Part shown: piece by piece, positions 12,522 through 56,110 of the stretch
How positions within the stretch are numbered: position 1 is the first letter of the stretch
How the letters are laid out: each line of letters opens with the position of its first letter
Source: Bacteroidales bacterium
GTDB taxonomy: Bacteria; Bacteroidota; Bacteroidia; Bacteroidales; FEN-979
Direction of reading: 5' to 3'
Length of the DNA stretch: 64,000 nt
Assembly (NCBI GenBank): GCA_049317265.1
Contig: JBMOIP010000007.1
Span: 2,663 to 66,662 of the forward strand
Program-made: the position numbers and the translations under genes
Notes under the pieces: model-generated
Told to the model about the DNA's origin: nothing
The model's input: only the letters and a program-made list of their open reading frames with translations
Databases searched by the model: none

Positions 12522-12588
12522 CAAAGGTCCTTCTTTTAGCGCCGGAAAGCATTACACAATTTCGGGGAAGAGTTACATCATTCACACC
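12522..12588 (-). promoter_or_regulatory. conserved 67-bp promoter module P1 (upstream of csbD)
   Basis: Gene-oriented sequence: gGTGTGAATGATGTAAC-N13-TGTGTAATGC-N23-TTTG. TTTG is 64 nt from the ATG at 12457. The module starts 19 nt after the stop of the upstream transporter gene. Confidence 0.7.
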
Positions 12589-12607
12589 TTTTCCAGGCTC
12601 GCGACTA

Positions 12608-13870
12608 CTACAATTCCCTGATCTGCATATATGCCATCACAACTACGGCAGCCGACATTAATACCAGCGTGGCCAATCCAAGGATATTTGACCTCTTTCC
12701 ATTGGTGAATTTGCCCATGATTTTTTTGTTGTTCGAGATATGCAGAATGATGGCAATCAACACTGGTGCAGTTATCCCGTAAAGGATGGCCGAATAGATC
12801 AGCGCCTTGATGGGCGAAAGACCGATATAGTGCATCAGTAATCCCAGGATCAGCGAAACGGCAATGATCAGGTAAAAGGCTTTGGCCTTGTTGAATTTCT
12901 TATCCAGTCCCTTTTCCCAGCCAAATGTCTCGGTGATGATATAGGAGAGCGAACCTGTTAATACGGGAATGGCTAAAAAGCCGGTCCCGATCACACCCGC
13001 TGCAAAAAGGAGATAGGCCAGGTTCCCGGCCAGGGGTTTCAGTGCTTGTGCCGCCTGTTCTACTGTATCAATCTGATGAATGCCCCCGTTGAATAAAACC
13101 GTTCCCGTGGTGAGGATGATGAAAAACATGACCAGGTTCGAAAAGAGCATGCCAAAGTCGACATCCTGTTTCATGTCGTGGATAATCCTTTTGTTGACCA
13201 CCAGGTGTTTTTTCTTCAATTTAATATCTTCTGAGACCATGGTCGCCTGCCAGAAAAACAGGTACGGGGAGATGGTGGTGCCAAGAATGGCTACCAGGAT
13301 GCTGATATAACTTTTGTCGAATCTGATGGTCGGAACAAAGGTTGACTTTAATACAGCCACCCAATCCTGCTTATATAAAAACGGGATTACCAGGTAGATA
13401 AGCAGGAAAATGCAGAGGTATTTGAGGATGGCTGCTATTTTCTGATAGGGCAGCCAGATGATCATGGCCATCAGGATGACCGTAAAAAAAAGGCTGAACC
13501 AGGTGGCATGAATGGCAGGGAACAACAAGTTGCCTACAGCGCCCATGCCGGCAATGTCAGCGCCGATATTCATGACAATAGCAGGAAAGCTGAACAGCAG
13601 CATTAAATACAAAATGGGTTTTGGGTAGTTGGCTTTCAACGTTCCTGCCAACCCGTGCGAAGTAACCAGTCCGATCCTGGCGCACATCTCCTGGATGGAG
13701 GCCATCAGCGGAAAGGTGATCAGCGCAGTCCATAAGGTGGATAATCCGTAAGCGGCGCCAGCCTGCGAATAGGTGGCTATCCCCGAGGGATCATCGTCGC
13801 TGGCACCTGTAACAAGGCCGGGCCCCAGGATTTTCCAGAACCTGACAAGTTTTCCCGAAATCATATTCAT
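12608..13870 (-). CDS. NRAMP-family divalent metal cation transporter
   Basis: Polytopic ORF with N-terminal GPGLVTGASDDDPSGIATYSQAG, an NRAMP-related clade motif rather than canonical DPGN. I chose ATG 13870 because it forms an ATGA overlap with the upstream stop; the track start at 13915 is also possible. Confidence 0.75.
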   Translation of the reverse strand: MNMISGKLVRFWKILGPGLVTGASDDDPSGIATYSQAGAAYGLSTLWTALITFPLMASIQEMCARIGLVTSHGLAGTLKANYPKPILYLMLLFSFPAIVMNIGADIAGMGAVGNLLFPAIHATWFSLFFTVILMAMIIWLPYQKIAAILKYLCIFLLIYLVIPFLYKQDWVAVLKSTFVPTIRFDKSYISILVAILGTTISPYLFFWQATMVSEDIKLKKKHLVVNKRIIHDMKQDVDFGMLFSNLVMFFIILTTGTVLFNGGIHQIDTVEQAAQALKPLAGNLAYLLFAAGVIGTGFLAIPVLTGSLSYIITETFGWEKGLDKKFNKAKAFYLIIAVSLILGLLMHYIGLSPIKALIYSAILYGITAPVLIAIILHISNNKKIMGKFTNGKRSNILGLATLVLMSAAVVVMAYMQIREL

Positions 13871-14265
13871 GAATGATGGATCTTGCCGCCTGGTTTGCCG
13901 GCAACCATCTTCCACAAACTCTTCCCAAACGATTTAACTGTTTCCGGATTTTTCGCCACCAGGTCAACAATGCCAAACATAATCGCATTTCCGGCCAGCT
14001 TTTTAAACGGATTCCGGCTTCCCTGCTCAAATAAAAGTTTTGAAAGGTAACCGGTTGCCATGCCAACCGAAGTATTGATTAAATTGTCTTTCAACTCTCT
14101 CGAGGCTGTCAGTTCCCTGAGTGTGCTGATAACAAGGTTCAATGGTTTTACGCTTTCATAGGCAAGCAGGAAATGCTCTTTTAACAATACTCCCTCTTCG
14201 GCCTGAAGGTTTTCCAGTCGCTGAATGGCTGCCCTGAGTGTACTTTGTGAGTTAATGGTTTGCAT
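13867..14265 (-). CDS. hypothetical protein
   Basis: 132-aa ORF with an ATGA overlap to the downstream transporter. No family recognised. Confidence 0.55.
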   Translation of the reverse strand: MQTINSQSTLRAAIQRLENLQAEEGVLLKEHFLLAYESVKPLNLVISTLRELTASRELKDNLINTSVGMATGYLSKLLFEQGSRNPFKKLAGNAIMFGIVDLVAKNPETVKSFGKSLWKMVAGKPGGKIHHS

Positions 14266-14274
14266 AATCTATTC

Positions 14275-14616
14275 TTATTGAAGGGCCTGTGTAATGATGA
14301 GATCGCTAAGCGGTTTTTTAATCCATGAATGAAGGAAGAGATGAAGGATGACTCCCGCAACGAGGTAAAATCCCGCCACGATGAAAAAACCGAAATATAA
14401 TTTCCCAAGCAACTCGCCCAGGTAGATGGCGATTCCGATGTTCAGCACCAGTGCAAACATCGAAATCATGAGGATGACACTTAACTTCGATACCAGCGAA
14501 GTCACCACGATGGTGGTGGTTTCCAGCGCTTTTAGTTTCGAGAGTTCATAGGTTGTCATGGTGTAGGATTCAACCTTTTCAAACAGGTTTTCTATTAAAA
14601 TTGCCGGTGTTTCCAT
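14275..14616 (-). CDS. small membrane protein (phage-holin-family / YqjE-like)
   Basis: 113 aa with two central hydrophobic helices (VILMISMFALVLNIGIAIYLG, GFFIVAGFYLVAGVILHLFL). This type commonly accompanies YtxH genes. Confidence 0.55.
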   Translation of the reverse strand: METPAILIENLFEKVESYTMTTYELSKLKALETTTIVVTSLVSKLSVILMISMFALVLNIGIAIYLGELLGKLYFGFFIVAGFYLVAGVILHLFLHSWIKKPLSDLIITQALQ

Positions 14617-14650
14617 ATCTAAGTATGTTTGTTTTGAAGGGTTATATCAG

Positions 14651-14688
14651 CAAAAAGCAATATCCAAAGATCTCTCCATTGGATATTG
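14651..14688 (-). terminator. intrinsic terminator/attenuator between the YtxH and holin-like genes
   Basis: On the minus strand, a perfect 10-bp stem (caatatccaa / ttggatattg; 14679-14688 and 14658-14667) with an 11-nt loop is followed by cTTTTTg. Confidence 0.55.
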
Positions 14689-14715
14689 TATTTTACTGAT
14701 TTACAATACTTGTAA

Positions 14716-15003
14716 TTAAACTTTCACTTTGGCGTCCGCAATAACTTCCGCCTCAATGTCTTCAATTTTCTGCTTTCCCTCTTTAGCCATGCGATGGGCT
14801 TCCCCTCTCAGGTTTTCAAATTTTTCGGTGATTCCGCCGATGAAATCGTTGAATTTATCCTCCATCTCACCCGCATATTGATCTTTTTTGCGGATGATTC
14901 TCCGCCTGGTCTTTGAACCTTTGGCGGGTGCGAATAAAATGCCTAATGCTGCGCCTGCGGCAATCCCTGCCAAAACGCCTAAAAACACTTTTCCTGAATT
15001 CAT
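14716..15003 (-). CDS. YtxH-domain general-stress-type protein
   Basis: 95 aa with an N-terminal helix GVLAGIAAGAALGILFAPAKG and a charged helical tail, the typical YtxH architecture. Confidence 0.75.
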   Translation of the reverse strand: MNSGKVFLGVLAGIAAGAALGILFAPAKGSKTRRRIIRKKDQYAGEMEDKFNDFIGGITEKFENLRGEAHRMAKEGKQKIEDIEAEVIADAKVKV

Positions 15004-15033
15004 AACTATGGTTTTAATATTGATGATTAATTT

Positions 15034-15543
15034 CTATTTGTTCTTCCCGTTACCATGACCCTCGCCCCGGCCATGCCCTTTTTTCCCCTTGTTGTGATCT
15101 CCTCCCTGGTTGTTCATGTTGCCGTTACGGGAGTTATTCCCTCCCTGATTACCTCTGCCAGGTCCTTCCCCAATGGTACGTTGCATTTGACCACGATAAC
15201 CCTTCTGATATTTCAGCTTGTGCTCCTTGAAGTGAATATAGGGTGACCGGCCATGATAGTCGGGCATGACCACCTTGTACCCATGGTAGAGGTCATAATT
15301 CCTGTACCTGGAAGGAAGATCCCGCTTGCGAATCCAGGTGCTTCCGTTGAAATAGACAAACATCGACGACTGTACATCATAATATGCTTCAACATCCGGC
15401 AGGTAATAATAGTGCACTGAACCATAACCGGCTGGTCCCCATGGAGGTGGAACACCTACCTGAATGCTCATTGAAAACTGTGCCTGCATTGAAAGAGCCA
15501 GCATGAACATTAGGACAATGGCTGATAATTTAACGGCTTTCAT
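15034..15543 (-). CDS. secreted protein with Gly/Asn/His/Lys-rich tail
   Basis: Signal peptide MKAVKLSAIVLMFMLALSMQAQ, a Tyr/Pro-rich core, and the tail GNQGGNNSRNGNMNNQGGDHNKGKKGHGRGEGHGNGKNK. Confidence 0.65.
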   Translation of the reverse strand: MKAVKLSAIVLMFMLALSMQAQFSMSIQVGVPPPWGPAGYGSVHYYYLPDVEAYYDVQSSMFVYFNGSTWIRKRDLPSRYRNYDLYHGYKVVMPDYHGRSPYIHFKEHKLKYQKGYRGQMQRTIGEGPGRGNQGGNNSRNGNMNNQGGDHNKGKKGHGRGEGHGNGKNK

Positions 15544-15565
15544 GTTGTTGTTTTTTGGGTCTCCC

Positions 15566-16006
15566 CTATTTTACATTTTTAACGGTCAGGTCTGTAAAGG
15601 CTTTGCCCATCTCGTCCATATCGTGACTGAATTCAGCTTTGAAAACCAGCCATTTGTCTTTTCCCTCTTCCTTATAATTTTCAAGTCTCATTTTCATGTC
15701 GCTGTTTTTTTGTTCCAGAACTGCGATCTTCTTTTGGTATTCGGCCCGTGCAGATTTTTTCTCCTTTTCAATCCTTGCATTAAACCCCTTGATGCGCTCT
15801 TCATTGGCTGCAATGGTGGAAGCGGTTTCCATCCTGTAAGCAGCGATATCCGCCAGGTATTCCTGGTTTGCCTTGTCAAGATCCTTGTTGGCTTCCACAA
15901 CATTCTCCTGGGCATTCTCCACCTTTTGTGCACTGCTGCTGCAACCTGTTATCATGGCACTTGCAATGAACGTACTTGCTGCGAATGCTAAAATTGTCTT
16001 TTTCAT
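15566..16006 (-). CDS. coiled-coil lipoprotein
   Basis: ATG 16006 gives MKKTILAFAASTFIASAMITGC (lipobox). The remainder is K/E-rich and helical. The track's TTG start at 16081 lies inside module P2. Confidence 0.7.
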   Translation of the reverse strand: MKKTILAFAASTFIASAMITGCSSSAQKVENAQENVVEANKDLDKANQEYLADIAAYRMETASTIAANEERIKGFNARIEKEKKSARAEYQKKIAVLEQKNSDMKMRLENYKEEGKDKWLVFKAEFSHDMDEMGKAFTDLTVKNVK

Positions 16007-16023
16007 TTTATATTTGATTACCT

Positions 16024-16039
16024 GTGAATGAATTTTCAC
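16024..16039 (-). promoter_or_regulatory. GTGAAA-N4-TTTCAC-type palindrome downstream of module P2
   Basis: gtgaatgaattttcac; arms match 5/6. It begins 4 nt after the TTTG of P2. Confidence 0.45.
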
Positions 16040-16043: not shown

Positions 16044-16110
16044 CAAAGGTGGCTCTGTTCAGCGCTGAATGTGTTACACAACTATCTCAAAATGTTACAT
16101 GATTCACACA
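16044..16110 (-). promoter_or_regulatory. conserved 67-bp promoter module P2
   Basis: Gene-oriented sequence: TGTGTGAATCATGTAAC-N13-TGTGTAACAC-N23-TTTG, 37 nt from ATG 16006. Confidence 0.7.
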
Positions 16111-18861: not shown

Positions 18862-18928
18862 CAAAGGTCGTTATCCCCTTCTCCTTTTATGTTACACAAA
18901 TCCTTATAAAAGTTGTATGATTCACACA
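18862..18928 (-). promoter_or_regulatory. conserved 67-bp promoter module P3
   Basis: Gene-oriented sequence: TGTGTGAATCATACAAC-N13-TGTGTAACAT-N23-TTTG, 41 nt from ATG 18820. The distal hexamer is a variant (ACAAC). Confidence 0.65.
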
Positions 18929-21053: not shown

Positions 21054-21120
21054 CAAAGATCGTTCTCCCATGCAATGAATGTGTTACATAACTATTTAAA
21101 AATGTTACATGATTCACACA
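21054..21120 (-). promoter_or_regulatory. conserved 67-bp promoter module P4
   Basis: Gene-oriented sequence: TGTGTGAATCATGTAAC-N13-TATGTAACAC-N23-TTTG, 40 nt from ATG 21013. Confidence 0.7.
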
Positions 21121-24690: not shown

Positions 24691-24757
24691 CAAAATTGCA
24701 CCCCTTTCCATGCCAAAGTGTTACACAATTACCCGGAAGAGTTACATCATTCACACG
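24691..24757 (-). promoter_or_regulatory. conserved 67-bp promoter module P5
   Basis: Gene-oriented sequence: cGTGTGAATGATGTAAC-N13-TGTGTAACAC-N23-TTTG, 34 nt from ATG 24656. Confidence 0.7.
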
Positions 24758-24862: not shown

Positions 24863-24929
24863 TGTGTGAATCATGTAACATATTTAAAAAGTTATATAAC
24901 ACTTTCACAGGAGAGTCCTCATAATTTTG
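24863..24929 (+). promoter_or_regulatory. conserved 67-bp promoter module P6
   Basis: TGTGTGAATCATGTAAC-N13-TATATAACAC-N23-TTTG, with -7 box TAATTTTG, 23 nt from ATG 24953. Confidence 0.7.
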
Positions 24930-27758: not shown

Positions 27759-27825
27759 TGTGTGAATCATGTAAGTTTAACTAAAAGTTGTGTAACACAT
27801 TCCGGTTCGCCGGGTCGGACCTTTG
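27759..27825 (+). promoter_or_regulatory. conserved 67-bp promoter module P7
   Basis: TGTGTGAATCATGTAAG-N13-TGTGTAACAC-N23-TTTG. It begins 15 nt after the mlaD stop, 30 nt from ATG 27856. Confidence 0.7.
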
Positions 27826-29476: not shown

Positions 29477-29543
29477 AGTGTGAATGATGTAAGTTATAGT
29501 AAAAATTATGTAACGCATCCCGGCTGCCAGGGGCATAACTTTG
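29477..29543 (+). promoter_or_regulatory. conserved 67-bp promoter module P8
   Basis: aGTGTGAATGATGTAAG-N13-TATGTAACGC-N23-TTTG, with -7 box TAACTTTG, 62 nt from ATG 29606. Confidence 0.7.
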
Positions 29544-34298: not shown

Positions 34299-34364
34299 TG
34301 TGTGAATTATGTAAACTATTTAAATAATTATGTAAATCATCGTCGATAAAGGCAGCCACCTTTG
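34299..34364 (+). promoter_or_regulatory. conserved promoter module P9 (66 bp)
   Basis: TGTGTGAATTATGTAAA-N13-TATGTAAATC-N22-TTTG. It begins 16 nt after the GT4 stop, 83 nt from the TTG start at 34448. This is the most divergent copy. Confidence 0.6.
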
Positions 34365-34447: not shown

Positions 34448-35029
34448 TTGAAGATCTACATTAAATACATGGTTAGTAACCGTTGTAAATTAGCGGTGAA
34501 AGAGGCATTGAAGCAACTTGGGTTGCACTTTATCGTGGTCGATTTAGGGGAGGTGGAGATTATGGAGAGCATCACTGCTTTGCAAAGAACCGAACTTACA
34601 GGCATCCTTCTGAATTCGGGGCTCGAGCTGATGGATGACAAACGGGCCGTCCTCATTGAAAGGATAAAAAATGCAGTGATTGAGATGATCCATCATTCGG
34701 ATGAGATGATCAAGACAAATTTTTCCGACTTCATCAGTAAAAAACTCGATCATGACTACACTTACCTCGCTAACCTCTTTTCTGAAGTGCAGGGTACCAC
34801 CATCGAGCATTACATCATCTCCCATAAAATTGAACGGATCAAGGAGCTCATTATCTATGATGAACTGAATATCACAGAAATAGCCTGGAAATTAAACTAT
34901 AGCAGTGTTGCACATCTTTCAAATCAGTTCAAAAAGGCGACCGGGCTCTCCCCTTCGCATTTTAAACAACTGAAAGTAAAAAAACGAATCCCGCTCGAAG
35001 AGATCGGTAACGCAATGCATGAAGACTAA
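34448..35029 (+). CDS. small AraC-family regulator with N-terminal HMA/ferredoxin-like domain
   Basis: The TTG start is supported by the ATG-initiated paralog (MKIYIKYMVSNRC vs MKLYIKYMVSIRC). The C-terminus is an AraC double HTH (ITEIAWKLNYSSVAHLSNQFKKATGLSPSHF). Confidence 0.8.
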   Translation: MKIYIKYMVSNRCKLAVKEALKQLGLHFIVVDLGEVEIMESITALQRTELTGILLNSGLELMDDKRAVLIERIKNAVIEMIHHSDEMIKTNFSDFISKKLDHDYTYLANLFSEVQGTTIEHYIISHKIERIKELIIYDELNITEIAWKLNYSSVAHLSNQFKKATGLSPSHFKQLKVKKRIPLEEIGNAMHED

Positions 35030-37737
35030 TGCGCAATAATATGGAACGAACCCATTCACACGACGCACAATACGCCAGCAGCCTGATCGAAGCGAGCCTC
35101 GACCCGTTGATCACCATCAGTCCCGACGGGAAGATTACCGATATGAACCAGGCGAAGGTGGATATCACCGGCATCGAACGCGCACAACTTGTAGGTACGA
35201 ATTTCTTCGATTACTTCACCGAACCCAAACAGGCATACGCCGTTTACCTGGAAGTGTTCGCCAAGGGTAACGTGACCGATGCGGCCCTCACATTCCGGCA
35301 TAAAAACGGTAAGCTGACCGATGTTTTGTTCAATGGTTCGGTTTACAAAGATGAGAATGGCGTGGTGATCGGAGCTGTAGTTGTTGCACGTGACATTGGA
35401 GAGCAAAAATGGGCCATTGACCTTCAAATCGCCAACAAGGAACTTGCTTTCCAAAACGATGAAAAAGAGAAACGGGCACAGGAACTCATCATTGCCAATA
35501 AAGAACTTGCTTTCCAAAACAATGAAAAAGAGAAACGTGCACAGGAACTGATCATTGCAAATAAAGAACTTGCATTTCAGAACAACGAAAAGGAGAAGAG
35601 AGCTGCAGAGTTGATCATTGCCAACAAAGAACTTCTCTTTCAAAACCAGGAGAAAGGAAAACGGGCAGCTGAATTAGGCATCGCAAACATTGAACTTGCT
35701 TTCCAGAATGATGAAAAGGAGAAAAGGGCTGCGGAGTTAAGGATTGCCAACTATGCCCGCAGCATCATCGAGGCAAGCCGCGACCCGCTGTTTACCATTA
35801 GTCCGGCCGGTAAAATTACCGACATGAACAATGCGTCGGTAAGAATAACTGGTTGTTCCCGTGAAGCGCTGACTGGAAGCAACTTTTTTGACTATTTCAC
35901 CAACCCGGCGAAAGCACGGAAGGTATACCGTGAAGTATTCGCAAAAGGGTTCGTTGCCGACTATCCGCTAACCATCAAGGATCATAAACTGACAGATGTA
36001 CTGCTGAATGGCTCCGTGTACAATGATGAGCAGGGTAAAGTGCTGGGCGTTGTCGTCGTTGCAAGGGATATTACCGATCAGAAAAGAATTGAAAGTGAGC
36101 TGACCGAAGCGATCGTCTTTGCAGAACTGGCTACAACCATTGCAGAAGAGGCAAAAATCAAGGCGGAGAATTCGACCAGGGTGGCCGAAAATGCGGTGAA
36201 AGCAAAACAGCAGTTCCTTTCAAATATGAGCCATGAAATCCGGACCCCAATGAATGCCATCATCGGGTTTACCAAAGTTTTGCTGAAAACGGATCTCTCC
36301 GCCAAACAAAAAGAGTACCTCACCGCCATTAAAATGAGTGGGGATGCCCTGATCGTGCTGATCAACGACATCCTCGACCTGGCTAAGGTGGATGCCGGAA
36401 AGATGATTTTTGAACAAACGCCTTTTACCATGGCCTTGTCGATATCGGCCATGCTCCATCTGTTTGAAGCCAAAATCCAGGAGAAAAACCTGGCGTTTGT
36501 AATCGATTATGATAAGAACATCCCGACGGTTCTGGTAGGTGATCCGGTAAGACTGCACCAGATCATTCTCAACCTGGTGAGCAATGCAGTGAAATTCACC
36601 AACAAAGGGACCATCACGGTAAGCGTGCGGTTGATCAATGAGGACAAGGATAACGCAACCATAGAATTTGCCATTGCGGATACAGGGATTGGCATTCCGG
36701 AGGGTAAAATAGATAAGATTTTCGAAAACTTCCAGCAGGCAACGAGCGGAACTTCAAGGTTGTATGGGGGAACAGGGCTGGGACTCGCCATCGTCAAACA
36801 ACTGGTGGAACCCCAGGGTGGCAGGATATGGGTAAAAAGCAAAGTGGATGAAGGCTCGACATTCAGCTTTATACTGACTTTTCATAAAACCAGCGCTGCT
36901 GCCGAGGCCGACGATGAAATAGTGGAACTCGACACTGAGATCAAAAATATAAAGGTGCTGGTGGTCGAAGATATTCCGCTCAACCAGTTGCTGATGAAAA
37001 CGCTGCTGGACGATTTCGGGTTTGAGCGCGATGTGGTGGCCAACGGGAAAATCGCCATCGAGGTATTGCAGAACAAATCATACGATATAATCCTGATGGA
37101 CTTGCAGATGCCTGAAATGAACGGGTTTGAGGCAACGGAGTATATCCGGAACAAGATGAATTCGAAGATCCCCATCATTGCATTAACCGCAGATGTAACC
37201 ACGGTTGACCTGGCGAAATGCAAAGCAGTGGGCATGAATGACTATATTGCCAAACCGGTTGACGAACGGCTGCTTTACAGTAAAATAGTCGGGTTGGTCA
37301 AAAAACCTGTTCCGCCAAAATTCAACCCCGGAAATGAAAAAAATCCATGCGACAACAGGAAAGAGAAGTGCATCGACCTGGAGTACCTGATCCATCGTAC
37401 GAAATCAAACCCGGTGATGATGATGGAGATGATCTCTCTCTACCTTGAACAAACTCCACCATTGATCAACACCATGAAAAAAAGCCTGTTAAACAAAGAC
37501 TGGCACTCATTGCATTCGGCGGTACACAAAATGATCCCCTCCTTCGCTATCATGGGTATCAGCGTCGATTTTGAAAATATGGCTAAAAAAGTGCAGGAGT
37601 ATGCAAGTACCCAAAAACAATCAGACGGGATCAGTGACATGGTCATGCAGATTGGCAACATTTGCACACAGGCATGCAGTGAACTGGAAGAAGAATTTAT
37701 ACGAATTAAAAGTACTGAAAATGAACCAAAAAGGTAA
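35029..37737 (+). CDS. hybrid sensor histidine kinase (PAS-repeat-PAS-HisKA-HATPase-REC-HPt)
   Basis: H-box SHEIRTPMNAIIG, G2 box GTGLGLAIVKQL, receiver VLVVEDIPLNQ...LMDLQMPEMNG, and an HPt-like C-terminus. TAATG overlap with the AraC gene. Confidence 0.85.
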   Translation: MRNNMERTHSHDAQYASSLIEASLDPLITISPDGKITDMNQAKVDITGIERAQLVGTNFFDYFTEPKQAYAVYLEVFAKGNVTDAALTFRHKNGKLTDVLFNGSVYKDENGVVIGAVVVARDIGEQKWAIDLQIANKELAFQNDEKEKRAQELIIANKELAFQNNEKEKRAQELIIANKELAFQNNEKEKRAAELIIANKELLFQNQEKGKRAAELGIANIELAFQNDEKEKRAAELRIANYARSIIEASRDPLFTISPAGKITDMNNASVRITGCSREALTGSNFFDYFTNPAKARKVYREVFAKGFVADYPLTIKDHKLTDVLLNGSVYNDEQGKVLGVVVVARDITDQKRIESELTEAIVFAELATTIAEEAKIKAENSTRVAENAVKAKQQFLSNMSHEIRTPMNAIIGFTKVLLKTDLSAKQKEYLTAIKMSGDALIVLINDILDLAKVDAGKMIFEQTPFTMALSISAMLHLFEAKIQEKNLAFVIDYDKNIPTVLVGDPVRLHQIILNLVSNAVKFTNKGTITVSVRLINEDKDNATIEFAIADTGIGIPEGKIDKIFENFQQATSGTSRLYGGTGLGLAIVKQLVEPQGGRIWVKSKVDEGSTFSFILTFHKTSAAAEADDEIVELDTEIKNIKVLVVEDIPLNQLLMKTLLDDFGFERDVVANGKIAIEVLQNKSYDIILMDLQMPEMNGFEATEYIRNKMNSKIPIIALTADVTTVDLAKCKAVGMNDYIAKPVDERLLYSKIVGLVKKPVPPKFNPGNEKNPCDNRKEKCIDLEYLIHRTKSNPVMMMEMISLYLEQTPPLINTMKKSLLNKDWHSLHSAVHKMIPSFAIMGISVDFENMAKKVQEYASTQKQSDGISDMVMQIGNICTQACSELEEEFIRIKSTENEPKR
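35428..35742. repeat. 5 x 63-bp in-frame tandem repeat
   Basis: Units start at 35428, 35491, 35554, 35617 and 35680. Each encodes IANKELAFQN(D/N)EKEKRA(Q/A)EL(I), and together they link the two PAS domains. Confidence 0.85.
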
Positions 37738-38155
37738 AATAAAGCTGTTCCTGGTGGATGACGATGCCTTGTTTTTGAAGTCATTGGAAATCGAATTCCT
37801 CCAGCATGCCGATTTTTCCATTGAGACATATGCCACAGGCGAACTATGCATGGCAAACTTATCACACTGTCCGGATGTCATCATCCTCGACTATATGCTT
37901 GACAGTATTGATCAGAATGCTATGAACGGGATACAAACCCTGGATAAAATCAAAGCTTATAACCAGGACATACCGGTCATCATTTTATCCTCCCAGGATA
38001 AAATTGATGTTGCGGTGAGTTGCATGCACCACAGGGCCTTTGATTATGTGGTAAAAAGCGAAACCGCCTTTATCCGGCTTCAGAAGATCATCACCACCAT
38101 CTTCCGGTACAGGAAGATGGAGAAAGAGCTGAACTGGTATATGGAAAGGATGTGA
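37721..38155 (+). CDS. single-domain response regulator (CheY-like)
   Basis: ATG 37721 gives MNQKGKIKLFLVDDDALFLKSLE...ILDYML. It has 144 aa, no output domain, and overlaps the kinase 3' end by 17 nt. Confidence 0.75.
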   Translation: MNQKGKIKLFLVDDDALFLKSLEIEFLQHADFSIETYATGELCMANLSHCPDVIILDYMLDSIDQNAMNGIQTLDKIKAYNQDIPVIILSSQDKIDVAVSCMHHRAFDYVVKSETAFIRLQKIITTIFRYRKMEKELNWYMERM

Positions 38156-42200: not shown

Positions 42201-42267
42201 TGTGTGAATGATGTAACAATTTGCAAAATTTATGTAACACTTCAACCCTCCTGCGGGCTTAATTTCG
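42201..42267 (+). promoter_or_regulatory. conserved 67-bp promoter module P10
   Basis: TGTGTGAATGATGTAAC-N13-TATGTAACAC-N23-TTCG (TTTG variant), 23 nt from ATG 42291. Confidence 0.65.
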
Positions 42268-47259: not shown

Positions 47260-47328
47260 GGTGTTACCTGCCTTTATTCAACATCACTGCAAACATACCA
47301 AAATTCAAGTGTATTCTGCGATAATTGT

Positions 47329-47540: not shown

Positions 47541-47607
47541 CAAAGGTCCATGAATCAACAGCAACAAGTGTTACATAACTAAGGAAAAAACTTACATGAT
47601 TCACACA
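47541..47607 (-). promoter_or_regulatory. conserved 67-bp promoter module P11
   Basis: Gene-oriented sequence: TGTGTGAATCATGTAAG-N13-TATGTAACAC-N23-TTTG. The distal end abuts the stop codon (47608-47610) of the upstream gene. Confidence 0.7.
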
Positions 47608-49642: not shown

Positions 49643-49709
49643 CAAAGTTGGATCTCTTACCGGTGGAAAGTGTTACATAACTCCTTAAATTAGTTACATC
49701 ATTCACACA
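49643..49709 (-). promoter_or_regulatory. conserved 67-bp promoter module P12
   Basis: Gene-oriented sequence: TGTGTGAATGATGTAAC-N13-TATGTAACAC-N23-TTTG, 26 nt from ATG 49616. The distal end is 3 nt from the upstream stop codon. Confidence 0.7.
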
Positions 49710-49712: not shown

Positions 49713-50405
49713 TTAACTATCGGTTTTGGTGACGATCCGTCCATCGACCATTTCAATAATGCGATGCGTTTTTTTTGCAAACTCATCATCATGAGTCACC
49801 ACCAGAATGGTTTGTTGATGTTCTTCAGCAAGTTTCCTGAATATTTCAAATACAACCAGGCTGTTCTTCTTGTCGAGGTTGCCTGTTGGCTCATCCCCCA
49901 TGATGATGGTGGGATCATTGATGAGAGCCCGGGCGATGGCAACCCGCTGTTTTTCGCCTCCCGACAATTGGTTGGCATTTTTGTCGGCTAACTTTAATAC
50001 ATCCAGATTTCGCAGATGTCCCAATGCCCGCTGCCTCACTTCGGATTCCGGGTATTTTCCAAGTTTGAGCCCGGGGAGCATGACATTTTCCAGGGCGGTA
50101 AACTCATTTAACAAATAGTGAAACTGGAATACGAAACCGATTTTCTCGTTGCGTACACGCGCAAGCTGCCTGTCACTCTTTCCCCGCATCAACTCCCCTC
50201 CGATCATAAGGTCGCCTTCATAGTCAGTATCCATGGTTGAAAGGATATAAAGCAAGGTCGATTTCCCGCAACCCGATTTCCCGATGATGGAGACAAACTC
50301 CCCCTGTTTAACAGAGAGCGTTATGTCATCCAGGATTTTCACGGTAACCGGGTCGTGAAAACTCTTGTTCACATGGTTTGCCTGGAGTACCTGGGTTTCG
50401 TTCAT
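49713..50405 (-). CDS. ABC transporter ATP-binding protein (MacB/LolD type)
   Basis: Walker [10 protein letters not shown], signature [15 protein letters not shown], Walker [10 protein letters not shown]. Confidence 0.9.
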
Positions 50406-50406
50406 G

Positions 50407-51666: not shown

Positions 51667-52742
51667 TGGGTTGGCTTATTGATCACGTCACCGGCAGACA
51701 GGCCGTTTATAATTTCAACCCTTTGATAATCCTTCAGTCCTACGATAACTTGTCTCATTTTCCCTTTTTTCATCTGTACCATCGAATCTCCGACCAGGTA
51801 ACTCCTGGGAATGGTCAGGGCTTTTTCCCTGGATTGAATGATAATATTTGCCTCAACGGTGAGATTAGGGTAGAGCACTTCGGGTTTTGAGACAAACAGG
51901 GCATTTACAGTGAAAGACCTCGTTTTCTCATTCATCAGGGGTTCAATGCGGTCGACTTTTGCTTCAAATACTTTACCCTTATAACTGTCCATTGTGAATA
52001 ACACTCTTTGCCCCATGTGAATCCTGGCAATGTCATACTCGTCAACGTTCATTTCAATTAAAAAAGCCGTTGCATCGCCTACAATTGCCAGCGGAATCAG
52101 GGTGCTAACAAATTCACCTTTTTCCTTGAAAATTTTATATACCCTCCCGCCGGCTTCCGCATTTACATAATAATCACCTGTCTGCAAGGCACTTATCTTC
52201 AGGTTCGTTTTCGCCTGGTTGGCAGTGAACTCCAATTGCCGTTGTAATTCGTGGTAGCGCAACTTTGCCAGCTGGAAATTGGCAACCGAGTTTTTATAGG
52301 CAAGCTGCCGCTGTTCAAATTCAACACGGCTGCCGATCCCCTCGGCCCACAATATGCGTTGCCTGGCCAGCAACAATGAATCATCCTTCATTTTGCTTAC
52401 AGAAACACTTATATTAACCTTTGCTTCGCCAAGTTTATCGGTGTTGGAAAACAGATCGGCATTGTTTGCTGCCAGCTGTGCGTTATAGGTATTCAGTTTC
52501 GACGATTCGTTCAATATCTTTATCAGCGGATCCCCCTTTCTGACAGTATCCCCCTCACGTACCAATATATTCTGGATCAACCCATTTACGGAGGAATATA
52601 CCTGGTACTGGTTTTTGCTCTTGATGATCCCGGAAGCGTAGACCGATTCAGAAATCGGGCCGATCGTCGGGCTGATCTGTTCCTTGCGGTTCCCGCATGA
52701 CACTGTCGACAGCATCAGAAAAATGAGCATCCTGTTTTTCAT
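51663..52742 (-). CDS. HlyD/MacA-type periplasmic adaptor lipoprotein
   Basis: Lipobox LSTVSC, a coiled-coil hairpin and beta-barrel regions. Start and stop codons overlap the neighbouring genes on both sides. Confidence 0.8.
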   Translation of the reverse strand: MKNRMLIFLMLSTVSCGNRKEQISPTIGPISESVYASGIIKSKNQYQVYSSVNGLIQNILVREGDTVRKGDPLIKILNESSKLNTYNAQLAANNADLFSNTDKLGEAKVNISVSVSKMKDDSLLLARQRILWAEGIGSRVEFEQRQLAYKNSVANFQLAKLRYHELQRQLEFTANQAKTNLKISALQTGDYYVNAEAGGRVYKIFKEKGEFVSTLIPLAIVGDATAFLIEMNVDEYDIARIHMGQRVLFTMDSYKGKVFEAKVDRIEPLMNEKTRSFTVNALFVSKPEVLYPNLTVEANIIIQSREKALTIPRSYLVGDSMVQMKKGKMRQVIVGLKDYQRVEIINGLSAGDVINKPTQ

Positions 52743-55099
52743 AATCTCTTTTTCTTACGTTCCACCATATATTTATTCCTGGGCTTTTCATTATCCAGGT
52801 CATTCATCTTTCTGTGCGCCCTCACGAGACTGCGTGGGAGTTCACCTTTGTACCTGATCTTGTAGTATGAAAATCCATTGAAGGGAATGGTTATCTGATC
52901 GGGGTGCATGATAACACGGTTGGCAACACCTTTATCTATAAACTGCACCATAAAGGCCATTTCCCTGGCTTTCACCAACTGACTCAACTTTCTGTCGATG
53001 AATGCATCACCGACAAAGTTGCTACACTTTTCCTGGATGGTATAAAAGGCATGGCCATTGGCCAATTTGTTTAAGTAGTGGACAAAAACTGAATCCTTTA
53101 CCGACATTTTATCCACCATTGCTGAATCTTCTTCACTGAAATTCCGCTCGCTCCCCGGGTGAATCAGCAGGTAATACTTTTTCTTTGCTTCAAAAAAAAG
53201 GGTGTACTCCTTCTCCTTTTCAACAAACGGCATGGGGTAAACCCAAAGGGTTGCCTCCTTGTTTTGCTCAAGATAATCGACCATCCTGGCAACAAACTTA
53301 TCCTGGTTCCGTGATAGCAGACTTTTTCTCATCTCCCATTTAAGGGTAAGTGATTGCTCAATTTCAGATTCCGTATTCTTCACCTCCATCCTGTAGGAGG
53401 TTGTTGCAGGCTTCACGAAGATATTTTCCACTAAATCGACAAGCACATCATGAAGATGAAATTTCGGATCCTTCAGATTACCCGTTATCGGAATCTCATA
53501 ATCGATCACATTGCCCCGCTCACGGATTAGCGACATGATGAGCGGAAGGGGCAGCCAGTTTTTATCTTTATTTCTTACCCTGCCGGTCCTGCGCGGATCA
53601 ATGATGATCACATGATTATTACTTTCAATATGCCCGCTTCTAACCCACCAGGCGCCTTTGAGTTCTATGGTCCCCCTGTCAAGCGGATAGGATGTAAAGG
53701 TGATTATATAAGGATTAAACATGGCGGCAGAGAGCCCCTGCAGAACATATTGAAGATCAAAATCCGTGCTGTCCTTCGGGTTTATACTTAACATTACAGA
53801 GACATTGCCGTAAGGTTTAATCCCCGATTTAAGCAGCACATGAACACGCTCCTGGTCCTTTTCTATCGAATCGGCCACAATGTAGAGCGGGTCAAGCGCG
53901 ACAGAAAATTTCTCACTGACAGCATAGTCATTAAATTGCAAATCAGCACGGTAAATTCCCAACCTGTTGATCTTATAATTACTTGTAAAAAAGTTTTTTG
54001 CCAGCACTTTCACATAGCGCGCTATTTCAATAATAAGGTTGAATCTTGCGACATCAGTCGTGGCAGCAGTTAGGTTGACCCCGTTTTTCCCGAACATTGT
54101 TTGAATGTTGTCAAGGTAATCGTATCGCTCATATTTTAAAAACGGATGGCTCAGCGACACTGAATCGAAAAGGTAATGATGCAGTTTAGGACTTATATCT
54201 CTCATGGCAAGCACCAGGTTATCAAAGGAGGCATAATCCTCATTCGGGTTTTTCCCAAAATGGAAATCATTGATCGAAAGTACTCCTGAAGCATTCAGAT
54301 CCTCCTGGTCCTTGAAATTCCCCCTGGCTTTGATGGTTGCATCGAGATATGCAGAAAAACTTCCATTATTCGTTAAATCTTTGAGATATTGCTGAATGAT
54401 GTTCAGATCAAACTTCCTGACAACAATGGCCAGCCTGTAATCAACAGTTTTAAAATTGATCATTAATTTGCCTTTAACATCCCCTGTGCCTATTCCCGGG
54501 AGAAAGGAAAACTTCGCAGTGATAGAGTCTGAATTCCATCGTTTTCCATCGCTTTCAATGTTTACCTTTTTAATAAAATAGTTGATTGGAATTAATTTCT
54601 CGCGATAATGAAATTCCCCGTCATGAATCACTATTCTGAGAATGTTAAAACGAATGTTGGAGGGTGTTTTATCAACGCCTGCAGGGGTGAATTTTTTTAT
54701 TAAATCGGCAAAATTCAACTCCTTTTTCTCCTGGATGATGGTACCCTTGGGCTGATCCAGGATAATTTCTGAAATTTCAATTGTTTTCGACAGCAACTTA
54801 TGCATGGCAAAGTTAGCGCTCAATCCTTGCGCTGAGAAGAATATAACATCAGCATCCCGGACAGAAGCGGAACTTTTCAACTCATAAATTGTCAAGCCGC
54901 TTAAATGGATATACCCGGTAAAAGGATTAACATAGACCCATCCCAATTCGATTTTTCTTCCGGTATATTTCTCATCATATTTTTCGATGAGATACTTTGC
55001 GATGGGTGATATCAGCACAATGATCACAACTATTGCGGTCAGGATGATACCTGAAACGATAATGATTGTTTTCTTTAATTTGGTATTGGCAATTTTCAT
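52739..55099 (-). CDS. DUF748/AsmA-like large membrane-anchored protein
   Basis: 786 aa with an N-terminal TM anchor (IIIVSGIILTAIVVIIVLI). The N-terminal region resembles DUF748. Confidence 0.6.
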   Translation of the reverse strand: MKIANTKLKKTIIIVSGIILTAIVVIIVLISPIAKYLIEKYDEKYTGRKIELGWVYVNPFTGYIHLSGLTIYELKSSASVRDADVIFFSAQGLSANFAMHKLLSKTIEISEIILDQPKGTIIQEKKELNFADLIKKFTPAGVDKTPSNIRFNILRIVIHDGEFHYREKLIPINYFIKKVNIESDGKRWNSDSITAKFSFLPGIGTGDVKGKLMINFKTVDYRLAIVVRKFDLNIIQQYLKDLTNNGSFSAYLDATIKARGNFKDQEDLNASGVLSINDFHFGKNPNEDYASFDNLVLAMRDISPKLHHYLFDSVSLSHPFLKYERYDYLDNIQTMFGKNGVNLTAATTDVARFNLIIEIARYVKVLAKNFFTSNYKINRLGIYRADLQFNDYAVSEKFSVALDPLYIVADSIEKDQERVHVLLKSGIKPYGNVSVMLSINPKDSTDFDLQYVLQGLSAAMFNPYIITFTSYPLDRGTIELKGAWWVRSGHIESNNHVIIIDPRRTGRVRNKDKNWLPLPLIMSLIRERGNVIDYEIPITGNLKDPKFHLHDVLVDLVENIFVKPATTSYRMEVKNTESEIEQSLTLKWEMRKSLLSRNQDKFVARMVDYLEQNKEATLWVYPMPFVEKEKEYTLFFEAKKKYYLLIHPGSERNFSEEDSAMVDKMSVKDSVFVHYLNKLANGHAFYTIQEKCSNFVGDAFIDRKLSQLVKAREMAFMVQFIDKGVANRVIMHPDQITIPFNGFSYYKIRYKGELPRSLVRAHRKMNDLDNEKPRNKYMVERKKKRL

Positions 55100-55104
55100 C
55101 TTTG

Positions 55105-56016
55105 CTACTTACTAAATTTGGCAAGTCGCTTATTATCAAGTTTCCAGCAAACACTTAATCCCACCTCTTCGGGTGAGGTAGATAATCCAACGGAGAGGTA
55201 TTTGCTGCAGGAAACTTTATGCAAAGCAGGAACCACAATGCCAATTACAGCGCCAAGGCCAAATCCCACTGCCACATCCGAAGGGAAATGGTCAAGCGAT
55301 TTGATGCGTGCATACCCGATTGCCAGTGGTGGAATAGAAGCGGCAAGGTAAATAAGGTATTTTGCAGCACCCAATTCCGGATGATAGTCACAATAAACCT
55401 TTGCCATGAAAAACGTGCTGTAGGCACATGAGCCGACATGTCCGCTAAAGAAAGAGTTCCGGGTATTGTTGTTGTTCATGCGGTAATCCTCGGTAAGTCC
55501 TTCGGATCCGTTTTCAGGATAATAGACAAACGGCCGGTATCGGTTCACAAAAGATGGCCCGAGGGGACTGTAGTTATAGAAGCTGAAAGTAATGGTATGG
55601 CCCTCAACATACATCAGGAGGATATCGAGCCAATCCCTGCGTATGTTTTTATCGATGATCAGCAGGCTCGGCAACACGAAAATGCCGATCTCTCCATAAT
55701 CGGAGAACTTCTTATACAGGGTGCGGTCAGAAGATTTCTGGTGCAATGCCCACCGGTCGATGGAGTTGATAAGGTTTTTCTGCTGATCTGTATTGATGAA
55801 GGACAACTCTTCAGGGGTGAGCTTTGGTTTGCTTTTAAGGCGGCTGATGGCAAAATAATCACCGGCCATCCCAATCCCGATGATACTGCCGGTCACATAG
55901 TAGTTAACATGGTATCTTTTGATACGTTTAACTGGGTTGACAAGAGAGTCGGCAGGTTGGCATAAGGCGCTGACTGAAACACACAGTACCGCCAGTAAAA
56001 ACAAGGTTTTTTTCAT
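55105..56016 (-). CDS. PAP2-like membrane phosphatase (divergent)
   Basis: Signal/TM N-terminus. Contains FSGHVGS and HFPSDVAVG (PAP2 motifs 2 and 3). Motif 1 is not obvious. Confidence 0.6.
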   Translation of the reverse strand: MKKTLFLLAVLCVSVSALCQPADSLVNPVKRIKRYHVNYYVTGSIIGIGMAGDYFAISRLKSKPKLTPEELSFINTDQQKNLINSIDRWALHQKSSDRTLYKKFSDYGEIGIFVLPSLLIIDKNIRRDWLDILLMYVEGHTITFSFYNYSPLGPSFVNRYRPFVYYPENGSEGLTEDYRMNNNNTRNSFFSGHVGSCAYSTFFMAKVYCDYHPELGAAKYLIYLAASIPPLAIGYARIKSLDHFPSDVAVGFGLGAVIGIVVPALHKVSCSKYLSVGLSTSPEEVGLSVCWKLDNKRLAKFSK

Positions 56017-56043
56017 AGAAAATGAGGATCTTACAATCGAATG

Positions 56044-56110
56044 TAAAGATCAGCACATCCCGGGCGGAAGGTGTTACACAACTTTCGAAATAAATTACAT
56101 CATTCACACA
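56044..56110 (-). promoter_or_regulatory. conserved 67-bp promoter module P13
   Basis: Gene-oriented sequence: TGTGTGAATGATGTAAT-N13-TGTGTAACAC-N23-TTTA, 27 nt from ATG 56016. The first 7 nt overlap the last Val codon and the TGA stop of the AraC paralog. Confidence 0.65.

What the first reader, a model, noticed from the sequence alone, without database searches (positions are those of the whole stretch)
12522..56110. Thirteen copies of a fixed-geometry 67-bp promoter-like module tile a 44-kb block
Thirteen intergenic copies are seen directly.
- Minus strand: 12522-12588, 16044-16110, 18862-18928, 21054-21120, 24691-24757, 47541-47607, 49643-49709, 56044-56110.
- Plus strand: 24863-24929, 27759-27825, 29477-29543, 34299-34364, 42201-42267.

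The shared pattern is TGTGTGAAT(G/C)ATGTAAC - 13 nt - T(G/A)TGTAACAC - 23 nt - TTTG. Spacer lengths are invariant (13 nt in 13/13; 23 nt in 12/13, 22 in P9), while spacer sequence is free. Conserved geometry with free sequence is what a protein-contact site looks like, not a mobile repeat.

Every copy points at the next gene, and the TTTG lies 23-83 nt from the start codon. I found no good copy inside coding sequence or in 1-12.2 kb and 56.2-64 kb. Consecutive units from csbD to the PAP2/MacAB-like operon all carry it. This density of one composite site is far beyond what a normal regulon shows in a single locus. It does not match the canonical Bacteroidota TTTG(-33)/TAnnTTTG(-7) promoter, sigma-54, or any operator consensus I can name.
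Basis: seen in the sequence. Interest (0 to 1): 0.9.

Follow-up and report, generated by a model that had tools for sequence, protein, structure and literature searches.

The report
Activator-dependent promoters of a Bacteroidota stress island
Thirteen near-identical 67-bp promoter modules head every transcription unit of a 44-kb stress-gene block. Each looks like a two-repeat binding site for an AraC-type activator encoded in the block, placed in front of an ordinary Bacteroidota -7 box, and the same modules, genes and regulator recur in many uncultured Bacteroidota.

Summary
All 13 modules sit at the stated coordinates and nothing else in the window resembles them. A PWM scores them at 48 bits or more, with no other hit above 15 bits and none in shuffles. 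All are intergenic and point at the next gene.

The module has two parts:
- **Direct repeats.** Two repeats, TGTGTGAATsATGTAAC and AgTTrTGTAAC, lie 21 bp apart.
- **-7 box.** A yAyCTTTG box follows 23 nt later. This is the normal Bacteroidota sigma-A -7 element. There is no -33 element.

This is the geometry of a class II AraC/XylS-type activator site (araI1-I2-like).

Two 70%-identical small AraC-family genes lie in the block. One is itself preceded by a module and heads a conserved araC-hybrid histidine kinase-receiver operon.

In 80 metagenomic loci holding orthologues of this regulator I found 129 more modules, all with the 13-nt gap. They precede the regulator and orthologues of the window's genes (CsbD, YtxH, ice-binding-like, Mla, OmpA and others).

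It is most likely a conserved, clustered stress regulon. That the AraC protein binds the module is inferred, not shown. I found no published description.

This is a new member of a known kind, of moderate to high interest.

The parts
12522..12588 (-). Module 1, upstream of csbD (ATG 64 nt after TTTG)
   Evidence: Pfam CsbD
16044..16110 (-). Module 2. It heads a unit of an sll1863-family stress protein, an unknown 169-aa protein, YtxH, two small unknowns and Nramp (12608-16007).
18862..18928 (-). Module 3, upstream of two ice-binding-like (DUF3494) secreted proteins (16194-18820)
   Evidence: Pfam
21054..21120 (-). Module 4, upstream of a 627-aa ice-binding-like T9SS-sorted protein (19130-21013)
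   Evidence: Pfam
24691..24757 (-). Module 5, upstream of DUF6600 and a 688-aa OmpA-family protein (21268-24656)
   Evidence: Pfam
24863..24929 (+). Module 6, divergent from module 5, upstream of mlaE-mlaF-mlaD (24953-27743)
   Evidence: Pfam
27759..27825 (+). Module 7, upstream of a 265-aa OmpA-family lipoprotein (27856-28653)
   Evidence: Pfam
29477..29543 (+). Module 8, upstream of DUF5670, an AI-2E transporter, GH130 and a GT1 glycosyltransferase (29606-34282)
   Evidence: Pfam
34299..34364 (+). Module 9, the weakest copy (22-nt second spacer). It lies upstream of the regulator operon.
42201..42267 (+). Module 10 (TTCG in place of TTTG), upstream of a 118-aa unknown, Usp, CbpA/DnaJ, MerR_2 (CbpM-like), an unknown and DUF3943 (42290-46335)
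   Evidence: Pfam
47541..47607 (-). Module 11, upstream of a 59-aa lipoprotein-like ORF and a PAP2 phosphatase (46345-47508)
   Evidence: Pfam
49643..49709 (-). Module 12, upstream of YceI (49002-49616). The DUF4421 gene after it has its own TATCTTTG box.
   Evidence: Pfam
56044..56110 (-). Module 13 (TTTA in place of TTTG), upstream of PAP2, DUF748, HlyD, MacB permease and MacB ATPase (49713-56016)
   Evidence: Pfam
34448..35029 (+). AraC1, the candidate activator. It is 193 aa from a TTG start. It has an N-terminal beta-alpha-beta-beta-alpha-beta (ferredoxin-like) domain of about 65 aa, a long helix, and an AraC/XylS DNA-binding domain with two HTH motifs.
   Evidence: Pfam HTH_18/HTH_AraC; identical NCBI protein of 193 aa; models; fold matches
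35029..37737 (+). Hybrid histidine kinase (2 PAS, HisKA, HATPase, REC), apparently cytoplasmic. It is co-operonic with AraC1, and the operon is conserved in 31/38 loci.
   Evidence: Pfam
37571..38155 (+). Single-domain receiver protein. The ORF is given as listed; the true start is probably near 37740. It is conserved after the kinase in 25/38 loci.
   Evidence: Pfam; NCBIfam
56104..56664 (-). AraC2, a paralogue of AraC1 (70% identity, 186 aa). It ends 6 nt before the 5' edge of module 13.
12502..12517 (-). Palindrome GTGAAA-N4-TTTCAC, 4 nt after the TTTG of module 1. Further copies lie at 16024-16039, 18839-18854 and 21031-21046, after modules 2-4.

Best explanation
Each module is an activator-dependent housekeeping-sigma (sigma-A) promoter.

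**Anatomy.**
- Positions 60-67 (yAyCTTTG) are the Bacteroidota -7 box. Transcription should therefore start about 5 nt after the G, near module position 72.
- No -33 element is present.
- The place of the -33 element is taken by the promoter-proximal copy of a direct repeat. The TGTAAC of that copy falls at about -39 to -34.
- A complete 17-bp unit, TGTG-N7-TGTAAC, lies 21 bp (two helical turns) further upstream, at about -71 to -55.
- The conserved blocks are centred about 10 bp apart, on one face of the helix. Two AraC/XylS-type DNA-binding domains, each with two HTH motifs, would contact the DNA this way.

**Proposed mechanism (inferred).** A dimer or two monomers of the small AraC-family protein(s) encoded in the block (AraC1 at 34448-35029, AraC2 at 56104-56664) bind the two repeats. 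They recruit RNA polymerase as a class II activator, as AraC does at araI1-I2.

**Outcome.** The 13 promoters switch on 13 transcription units, roughly 45 genes. Their products are typical of general, osmotic and envelope stress responses:
- CsbD, YtxH, an sll1863-like protein and Usp;
- CbpA/CbpM;
- ice-binding-like secreted proteins;
- OmpA-family proteins, Mla and PAP2;
- a MacAB-like pump;
- a GH130/GT1 pair, Nramp and a P-type ATPase.

One promoter drives araC1 itself together with a PAS hybrid histidine kinase and a single-domain receiver. This gives positive autoregulation, and probably (speculatively) a phosphorelay input to the activator through its ferredoxin-like N-terminal domain.

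**Shown here:** the anatomy, its statistics, its conservation, and its linkage to the regulator gene.

**Inferred:** who binds the repeats, activation rather than repression, the transcription start site, and the inducing signal.
For: **Anatomy in the window.** 13 copies are found where 0 are expected. Repeat spacing is invariant and the spacers are free. Half-sites never occur singly in the window.

**The -7 box.**
- In 126 modules from other metagenomes, detected only through positions 1-17 and 29-40, position 61 is A in 90% and 63 is C in 71%. Positions 64-67 are T, T, T, G in 98, 99, 84 and 69%.
- The distance from repeat 2 to TTTG (or TTT) is 23 nt in 143 of 189 modules and 22 nt in 25.
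- Non-module genes of the window carry TAyCTTTG. An example is cydA, with TACCTTTG 23 nt before the ATG.
- TAnnTTTG lies at -12 to -5 in mapped Flavobacterium promoters (PMC9723704).

**Promoter-like placement.**
- TTTG lies 23-83 nt before start codons.
- 168 of 176 modules in other loci lie outside ORFs of 100 aa or more, although such ORFs cover 80% of that DNA.

**Regulator linkage.**
- Two HTH_18 genes lie in the block.
- A module lies about 90-120 nt upstream of 39/84 (strict criterion) to 48/79 AraC orthologues, and further sites fall just below threshold.
- Three of the 41 loci found through the DNA motif alone hold an AraC homologue. In two of them (L028, L033) the module directly precedes araC-kinase-receiver.

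**Regulon conservation.**
- Modules elsewhere precede orthologues of the window's genes: ice-binding-like 14, the 169-aa unknown 6, MlaE 6, YtxH 5, OmpA 4, CsbD 4, DUF6600 3, DUF748 2 and GH130 2. DUF5670, Usp, BrkB and Nramp are each preceded once.
- All 129 modules in the 80 AraC-anchored loci have the 13-nt gap. Density there is 0.2 per kb, with up to 8 modules per 20 kb.

**Operon conservation.** The araC-hybrid kinase-receiver operon is conserved in 31/38 loci.
Against: - No binding, transcription start or expression data exist, so the AraC assignment rests on position, autoregulation and site architecture.
- The 80 loci were collected through the AraC gene, so their co-localisation with modules is partly built in. 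The independent test (3 of 41 motif-anchored loci) is small.
- About 40% of AraC orthologues show no recognisable module upstream. AraC2 in the window has none.
- The first base of the -7 box is T in only 30% of modules.
- The proximal unit conserves only its TGTAAC part, so a second full AraC-type site is not evident.
- The distal 17-mer also reads TGTGA-N6-TAACA, close to a CRP/FNR half-palindrome. Its centre would fall near -61.5, and the centre of the proximal site near -41.
- I could not scan the source genome or any complete genome, so regulon size outside the island is unknown.
Confidence: 0.65

Rival explanations
1. The promoter reading is the same, but the repeats are bound by a different, unlinked transcription factor. 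Candidates are an OmpR- or LytTR-type response regulator fed by the PAS kinases, or a CRP/FNR-type protein. The AraC gene would then be only one more member of the regulon.
For: - Direct repeats with a 21-22 bp period are also typical of LytTR regulators (own knowledge).
- The distal unit contains TGTGA-N6-TAACA.
- Three histidine kinases and a receiver lie in or next to the block.
- About 40% of AraC orthologues lack an upstream module.
Against: - No LytTR, OmpR-type, Crp-type or other DNA-binding domain apart from the CbpM-like MerR_2 was found among the window's ORFs.
- The receiver at 37571-38155 has no output domain.
- The proximal site is not palindromic.
- The 4+7+6 bipartite 17-mer and the two-unit direct repeat abutting the -33 position match AraC/XylS sites best.
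- The AraC gene is the only DNA-binding gene repeatedly found at modules in other genomes.
Confidence: 0.2
2. The repeats are an operator for a repressor, whether AraC-type or other. The stress genes would be de-repressed rather than activated.
For: The sequence alone cannot show the sign of regulation. Some AraC-family proteins repress (own knowledge).
Against: - The site lies wholly upstream of the -7 box, at about -71 to -34.
- The promoters lack a -33 element.
- This layout is typical of activator-dependent promoters. Repressor sites usually overlap the core promoter or the start site.
Confidence: 0.08
3. The module is the promoter of an alternative (ECF-type) sigma factor, with TGTAAC as its -35 element.
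For: TGTAAC resembles ECF -35 boxes such as that of Bacillus subtilis SigX (own knowledge).
Against: - There are two TGTAAC boxes, not one.
- Nothing is conserved 16-17 nt after either box.
- The conserved downstream element is 22 nt away and equals the housekeeping -7 box.
- No sigma-70 region 2 or region 4 protein is encoded in the window.
Confidence: 0.04
4. The module is a dispersed repeat, such as a mobile or recombination-spread promoter cassette, with no common regulator.
For: There are many near-identical copies within one 44-kb block.
Against: - The spacers differ freely between copies.
- No terminal inverted repeats or target duplications are visible.
- Copies sit before orthologous genes in distant Bacteroidota.
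- 95% of copies are intergenic.
- Only six exact-pattern hits occur in 2.9 million viral contigs, all on contigs of 17-676 kb.
Confidence: 0.02

Closest known systems
AraC at araI1-I2 of the E. coli araBAD promoter, and XylS at Pm, RhaS and MelR (class II AraC/XylS activator sites)
   Same: - Two asymmetric units of about 17 bp lie in direct repeat with a 21-bp period.
- Each unit is bipartite (a short box, about 7 nt, then a 6-bp box).
- The proximal unit abuts or overlaps the -35-equivalent of a promoter that lacks a good upstream hexamer.
- The regulator has two HTH motifs (Pfam HTH_18).
   Different: - The core promoter is the Bacteroidota -7 type.
- The box sequences are different.
- The regulator has a ferredoxin-like N-terminal domain of about 65 aa instead of a cupin sugar-binding domain.
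- It controls at least 13 promoters of stress genes rather than a catabolic operon.
- Binding has not been shown.
Bacteroides hybrid two-component systems (HTCS)
   Same: An AraC-type output domain is combined with a histidine kinase and a receiver. A PDB chain named 'hybrid two-component system protein' matches the DNA-binding domain (12aw_A, E = 8e-5).
   Different: - Here the kinase-receiver, a second receiver and the AraC protein are three separate polypeptides in one operon.
- The kinase has cytoplasmic PAS sensors instead of a periplasmic domain.
- The targets are stress genes, not polysaccharide utilisation loci.
Canonical Bacteroidota sigma-A promoter (-33 TTTG / -7 TAnnTTTG)
   Same: The A and the TTTG of the -7 box are conserved, at the usual distance from start codons (PMC9723704).
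   Different: There is no -33 element. The first T of the TA is weak (30%).
General stress regulons of other phyla (sigma-B of Bacillus, EcfG/PhyR of Alphaproteobacteria, RpoS)
   Same: The gene content overlaps: CsbD, YtxH, Usp, small membrane proteins, envelope proteins and chaperones. Many promoters carry one shared signature, and the regulator is autoregulated.
   Different: The shared signature is an activator site on housekeeping promoters, not an alternative-sigma promoter. The regulon is physically clustered.

Membership tests
AraC/XylS-type class II activator site | Two asymmetric half-sites of about 17 bp in direct repeat, about 21 bp apart | tested here: met
   The TGTAAC boxes are 21 bp apart in 13/13 window copies and in 129/129 copies of the AraC-anchored loci. 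A rare 20-bp variant exists elsewhere.
AraC/XylS-type class II activator site | Each half-site is bipartite, with two major-groove contacts about 10 bp apart | tested here: inconclusive
   The distal unit is clearly bipartite (TGTG-N7-TGTAAC). The proximal unit conserves TGTAAC plus A.TT, and its upstream box is weak.
AraC/XylS-type class II activator site | The proximal half-site abuts or overlaps the -35-equivalent of a promoter with a poor upstream element | tested here: met
   With the -7 box at -12 to -5 (PMC9723704), the proximal TGTAAC lies at about -39 to -34. No TTG is found at the -33 position. The start site itself is inferred.
AraC/XylS-type class II activator site | A cognate AraC/XylS-family protein is genetically linked | tested here: met
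   Two HTH_18 genes lie in the block. Modules lie upstream of 39-48 of about 80 orthologues. Motif-anchored loci L028 and L033 show the same arrangement.
AraC/XylS-type class II activator site | Direct binding and activation by that protein | not testable with these tools
   This needs gel-shift or footprinting assays, mutants and reporters.
Bacteroidota sigma-A promoter | -7 box TAnnTTTG | tested here: inconclusive
   A is present in 90% and T, T, T, G in 98, 99, 84 and 69%, but the leading T in only 30%. Other genes of the window carry the same type of box as TAyCTTTG.
Bacteroidota sigma-A promoter | -33 TTG about 19-21 nt upstream of the -7 box | tested here: not met
   Positions 38-40 read CAC or are variable. 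This is as expected for an activator-dependent promoter.
ECF sigma promoter | A single -35 box, a 16-17 nt spacer, a conserved -10 (CGT-like), and a nearby sigma/anti-sigma gene pair | tested here: not met
   There are two boxes, and nothing is conserved at the -10 distance. No sigma-70 r2/r4 hit was found in the window.
LytTR response-regulator site | 9-bp direct repeats with a 12-13 nt spacer, plus a LytTR-domain regulator | tested here: not met
   The period fits, but no LytTR domain is encoded in the window. The distal unit also extends to 17 bp.
CRP/FNR site | A palindrome TGTGA-N6-TCACA bound by a Crp-family dimer | tested here: not met
   The distal unit reads TGTGA-N6-TAACA. The proximal unit lacks the left arm. 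No Crp-family gene lies in the window.
Mobile repeat (MITE/REP-like) | High identity over the whole unit, terminal inverted repeats, and insertion independent of gene context | tested here: not met
   The spacers are free. Copies lie before orthologous genes in other genomes. 95% of copies are intergenic and oriented towards a gene.
Known RNA family | A match to an Rfam covariance model | tested here: not met
   There are 0 matches at gathering thresholds in the whole window.

The most novel reading that the evidence does not exclude
The module may be the cis-signature of a general stress response that is widespread in Bacteroidota. No master regulator of such a response is established for this phylum, to my knowledge.

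On this reading, the response is run by a three-protein device that amounts to a hybrid two-component system split into pieces:
- a cytoplasmic PAS hybrid histidine kinase;
- a single-domain receiver;
- a receiver-less AraC-type activator. A phosphorylation-dependent protein-protein contact with its ferredoxin-like N-terminal domain would control its activity (a partner-switch logic).

The regulon would be kept as a physical island next to its regulator.
Probability: 0.3. Interest if true: 0.8.

Novelty: new member of a known kind. Interest (0 to 1): 0.6.

Why it matters
Bacteroidota lack RpoS, sigma-B and EcfG/PhyR (own knowledge), and how they coordinate general stress protection is poorly understood. 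This finding supplies four things:
- a precise, testable promoter signature;
- a candidate master activator with its signalling partners;
- a defined set of target families, many of unknown function: DUF6600, DUF748, DUF5670, ice-binding-like proteins and an sll1863-like protein;
- conservation across several orders (Bacteroidales, Chitinophagales, Cytophagales, Flavobacteriales, Saprospirales-like and Marinilabiliales-like MAGs).

It would allow regulon prediction from sequence in uncultured Bacteroidota. It also offers a compact inducible promoter for genetic tools.

Tried and rejected
   - It could not hit the window's own form, so it says nothing about the source genome or about copy number per genome.
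   - It still returned 41 loci, about 36 of them Bacteroidota. Most of these look like genuine modules of a rare 20-bp-period variant, and they served as motif-anchored, regulator-independent loci.
2. **Walking along the source contig.** The look-up of encoding contigs found none of three window proteins on record, so the 133-kb source contig outside the window could not be read.
3. **Known RNA families.** Rfam gave no match.
4. **E. coli-type promoter and terminator scan.** It was not enriched (30 found against 31.9 expected) and is uninformative for this phylum.
5. **Literature.** Five full-text searches on the motif words, the regulator and Bacteroidota stress regulons found no description. 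Absence from this library is not proof of novelty.
6. **N-terminal domain.**
   - The AlphaFold model has low confidence (pLDDT 59).
   - Foldseek gave only weak ferredoxin-like matches (CopZ, Atx1, ACT), none at E of 0.001 or better.
   - The fold class is therefore suggested, and no function is assigned.
7. **Readings rejected.** ECF sigma, LytTR, CRP/FNR and mobile-repeat readings were considered and rejected. See the rival explanations and membership table.


Full report
**1. Observation**

None is expected in 100 shuffles.

Aligning all 13 with flanks gives this consensus: AA-TGTGTGAATsATGTAAC-N11-AgTTrTGTAACAC-(t)TTc-N16-A.cTTTG.

A PWM built from the 13 returns exactly these 13 sites at 48-81 bits. 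It returns nothing between 15 and 48 bits, and no shuffle gave a hit at 5 bits or more. Neither repeat unit occurs singly anywhere in the window.

- The first spacer is 13 nt in 13/13 copies.
- The second spacer is 23 nt in 12/13 and 22 nt in the copy at 34299.
- Two copies end in TTTA (56044) or TTCG (42264-42267) instead of TTTG.
- TTTG lies 23-83 nt before the start codon of the next gene.

**2. Gene map**

Pfam and NCBIfam scans of about 55 ORFs show a Bacteroidota genome with several T9SS sorting domains. The closest protein record is an NCBI 'MAG: Bacteroidales bacterium' on a 133-kb contig.

The 13 modules head 13 transcription units that fill 12.3-56.1 kb without a gap:

| Module | Genes led |
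|---|---|
| 1 | csbD |
| 2 | sll1863-like, unknown, ytxH, two small unknowns, Nramp |
| 3 | two ice-binding-like proteins |
| 4 | a third ice-binding-like protein |
| 5 | DUF6600, OmpA |
| 6 | mlaEFD |
| 7 | OmpA |
| 8 | DUF5670, AI-2E, GH130, GT1 |
| 9 | AraC-family gene, PAS hybrid histidine kinase, receiver, P-type ATPase, PAS-like, BrkB |
| 10 | unknown, Usp, CbpA, CbpM-like, unknown, DUF3943 |
| 11 | small lipoprotein, PAP2 |
| 12 | YceI |
| 13 | PAP2, DUF748, HlyD, MacB |

A second AraC-family gene, 70% identical to the first, ends 6 nt from module 13. A 1871-aa kinase with many PAS domains and a receiver-kinase flank the block on the left. No sigma factor, LytTR, OmpR-type or Crp-type gene is present.

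**3. The 3' part is an ordinary -7 box**

Non-module genes of the window carry TAyCTTTG at similar distances from their start codons. Examples are cydA (TACCTTTG, 23 nt), the HAD gene (TACTTTTG, 32 nt) and DUF4421 (TATCTTTG). In Flavobacterium psychrophilum the sigma-A box TAnnTTTG lies at -12 to -5 (PMC9723704).

I examined 126 modules from other metagenomes, detected only through positions 1-17 and 29-40. In these, position 61 is A in 90%, 63 is C in 71%, and 64-67 are T, T, T, G in 98, 99, 84 and 69%. The distance from repeat 2 to TTTG (or TTT) is 23 nt in 143 of 189 modules and 22 nt in 25.

The start site is therefore predicted near module position 72. No TTG is found at the -33 position.

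**4. The 5' part has the architecture of an AraC/XylS class II site**

The TGTAAC boxes are 21 bp apart in direct orientation. The distal unit is a 17-mer with a 4-bp box, 7 nt, and a 6-bp box. Conserved blocks are centred roughly 10 bp apart. With the start at position 72, the units span about -71 to -55 and -50 to -34.

This is essentially the layout of araI1-I2 and of XylS, RhaS and MelR sites (own knowledge of those systems).

**5. Related sequences**

*Regulator family.* The AraC1 protein has more than 8000 homologues. The best 120 are 79-85% identical, and the named ones among them are from Bacteroidota. Its N-terminal domain defines 1255 clusters at 50% identity, nearly all in proteins of about 190 aa or less.

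*Loci collected.* A metagenome scan with AraC1 gave 80 loci totalling 649 kb. My one genome scan used a pattern with the gap 1 nt too short (my error, see 'tried and rejected'). It still gave 41 motif-anchored loci, about 36 from Bacteroidota of several orders and one from Balneolaceae. Most carry a rare 20-bp-period variant.

*Module scan.* A two-part PWM scan finds 13 hits in the window, 0 in shuffles and 176 in the loci.
- In the AraC-anchored loci all 129 modules have the 13-nt gap. Density is 0.2 per kb.
- The 22 loci of 12 kb or more carry 0-8 modules, with a mean of 3.4.
- 168 of 176 modules lie outside ORFs of 100 aa or more, against 80% background coverage by such ORFs.

*Genes behind the modules elsewhere.* They are orthologues of the window's own genes:

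| Gene family | Modules preceding it |
|---|---|
| AraC1 orthologues | 39 |
| Ice-binding-like | 14 |
| 169-aa unknown | 6 |
| MlaE | 6 |
| YtxH | 5 |
| OmpA | 4 |
| CsbD | 4 |
| DUF6600 | 3 |
| DUF748 | 2 |
| GH130 | 2 |
| DUF5670, Usp, BrkB, Nramp | 1 each |

*Link to the regulator.*
- A module lies at a nearly fixed distance upstream of 39/84 (strict) to 48/79 AraC orthologues.
- A subgroup has only one 17-mer placed next to the -7 box.
- The araC-hybrid kinase-receiver operon is conserved in 31/38 loci.
- In two motif-anchored loci (L028, L033) the module directly precedes this operon.

**6. The regulator protein**

The C-terminal half is a standard AraC/XylS DNA-binding domain. Its best PDB sequence matches are YesN-type and HTCS output domains, XylR and AraC.

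The N-terminal 65 aa or so are predicted as beta-alpha-beta-beta-alpha-beta, with an invariant Cys at the start of helix 1 and conserved His residues. Foldseek finds only weak ferredoxin-like matches to CopZ, Atx1 and ACT domains. The sensing mechanism remains unknown. A link to the co-operonic kinase and receiver is an inference from gene order.

**7. Verdict**

The module is best explained as an activator-dependent sigma-A promoter of a conserved, physically clustered stress regulon. The in-block AraC-family protein is the most likely activator, and it is positively autoregulated.
- I put 0.65 on the whole statement.
- I put about 0.85 on 'promoter plus upstream transcription-factor site'.
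- I put about 0.6 on the AraC assignment.

The kind of element is well known. This family, its regulon and its signalling partners appear undescribed in the literature I could search.

Noticed in passing
window 12502-12517, 16024-16039, 18839-18854, 21031-21046 (- strand): A palindrome GTG(A/G)AA-N4-(A/T)TTCAC lies 4-7 nt after the TTTG of modules 1-4.
- The strict pattern occurs nowhere else in the window.
- It recurs after modules in L082, L083, L092 and L104. The L092 and L104 modules precede ice-binding-like orthologues.
- As RNA it would form a hairpin at the 5' end of the transcript, at -4 to -10.5 kcal/mol.
- It could instead be a second operator. Its half-site TGTGAAA resembles the TGTGAAT of the module.
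   Followed up: partly
L050, L053, L057, L062, L064, L067, L070 (upstream of AraC orthologues): A variant promoter carries only one 17-mer (TGTGTGAATTrTGTAAC), placed about 24 nt before GTATCTTTGACC, in place of the two-repeat module. L062, L067 and L070, three of these seven, are among the loci that lack the kinase-receiver genes downstream. L053 also holds a more distant AraC paralogue (about 54% identity) that has a normal module.
   Followed up: partly
L001-L041 (GTDB genomes): A rare form of the module has a 12-nt instead of a 13-nt inter-repeat gap. It appeared in about 36 Bacteroidota genomes and was found only because of my mistyped pattern. In L018 both gap lengths occur in one 8-kb locus.
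   Followed up: partly
window 29769-30344 and 30292-30879 (+): An AI-2E family transporter is split into two overlapping ORFs that cover the N- and C-terminal halves of the Pfam model. This suggests a frameshift, a pseudogene or an assembly error.
   Followed up: no
window 28683-28712 (+): A strong terminator-like hairpin (11 pairs followed by T7) lies just after the OmpA gene and inside the listed ORF 28625-29317. That ORF has no family hit and may not be a gene.
   Followed up: no
window 5121-11944 (-): A 1871-aa cytoplasmic hybrid histidine kinase with many PAS-family domain hits (up to 7 stretches per Pfam PAS model), followed by a receiver-kinase, sits directly at the left border of the module block. 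It has no module of its own.
   Followed up: no
window 1-2187: The first 2 kb have 34.8% G+C against about 46% elsewhere. They hold a 523-aa ORF with no Pfam hit, even at E = 0.1.
   Followed up: no
protein P0124: A 1043-aa representative protein matches the AraC N-terminal domain in 10 separate stretches, that is, as a tandem array of the domain. Its nature was not examined.
   Followed up: no
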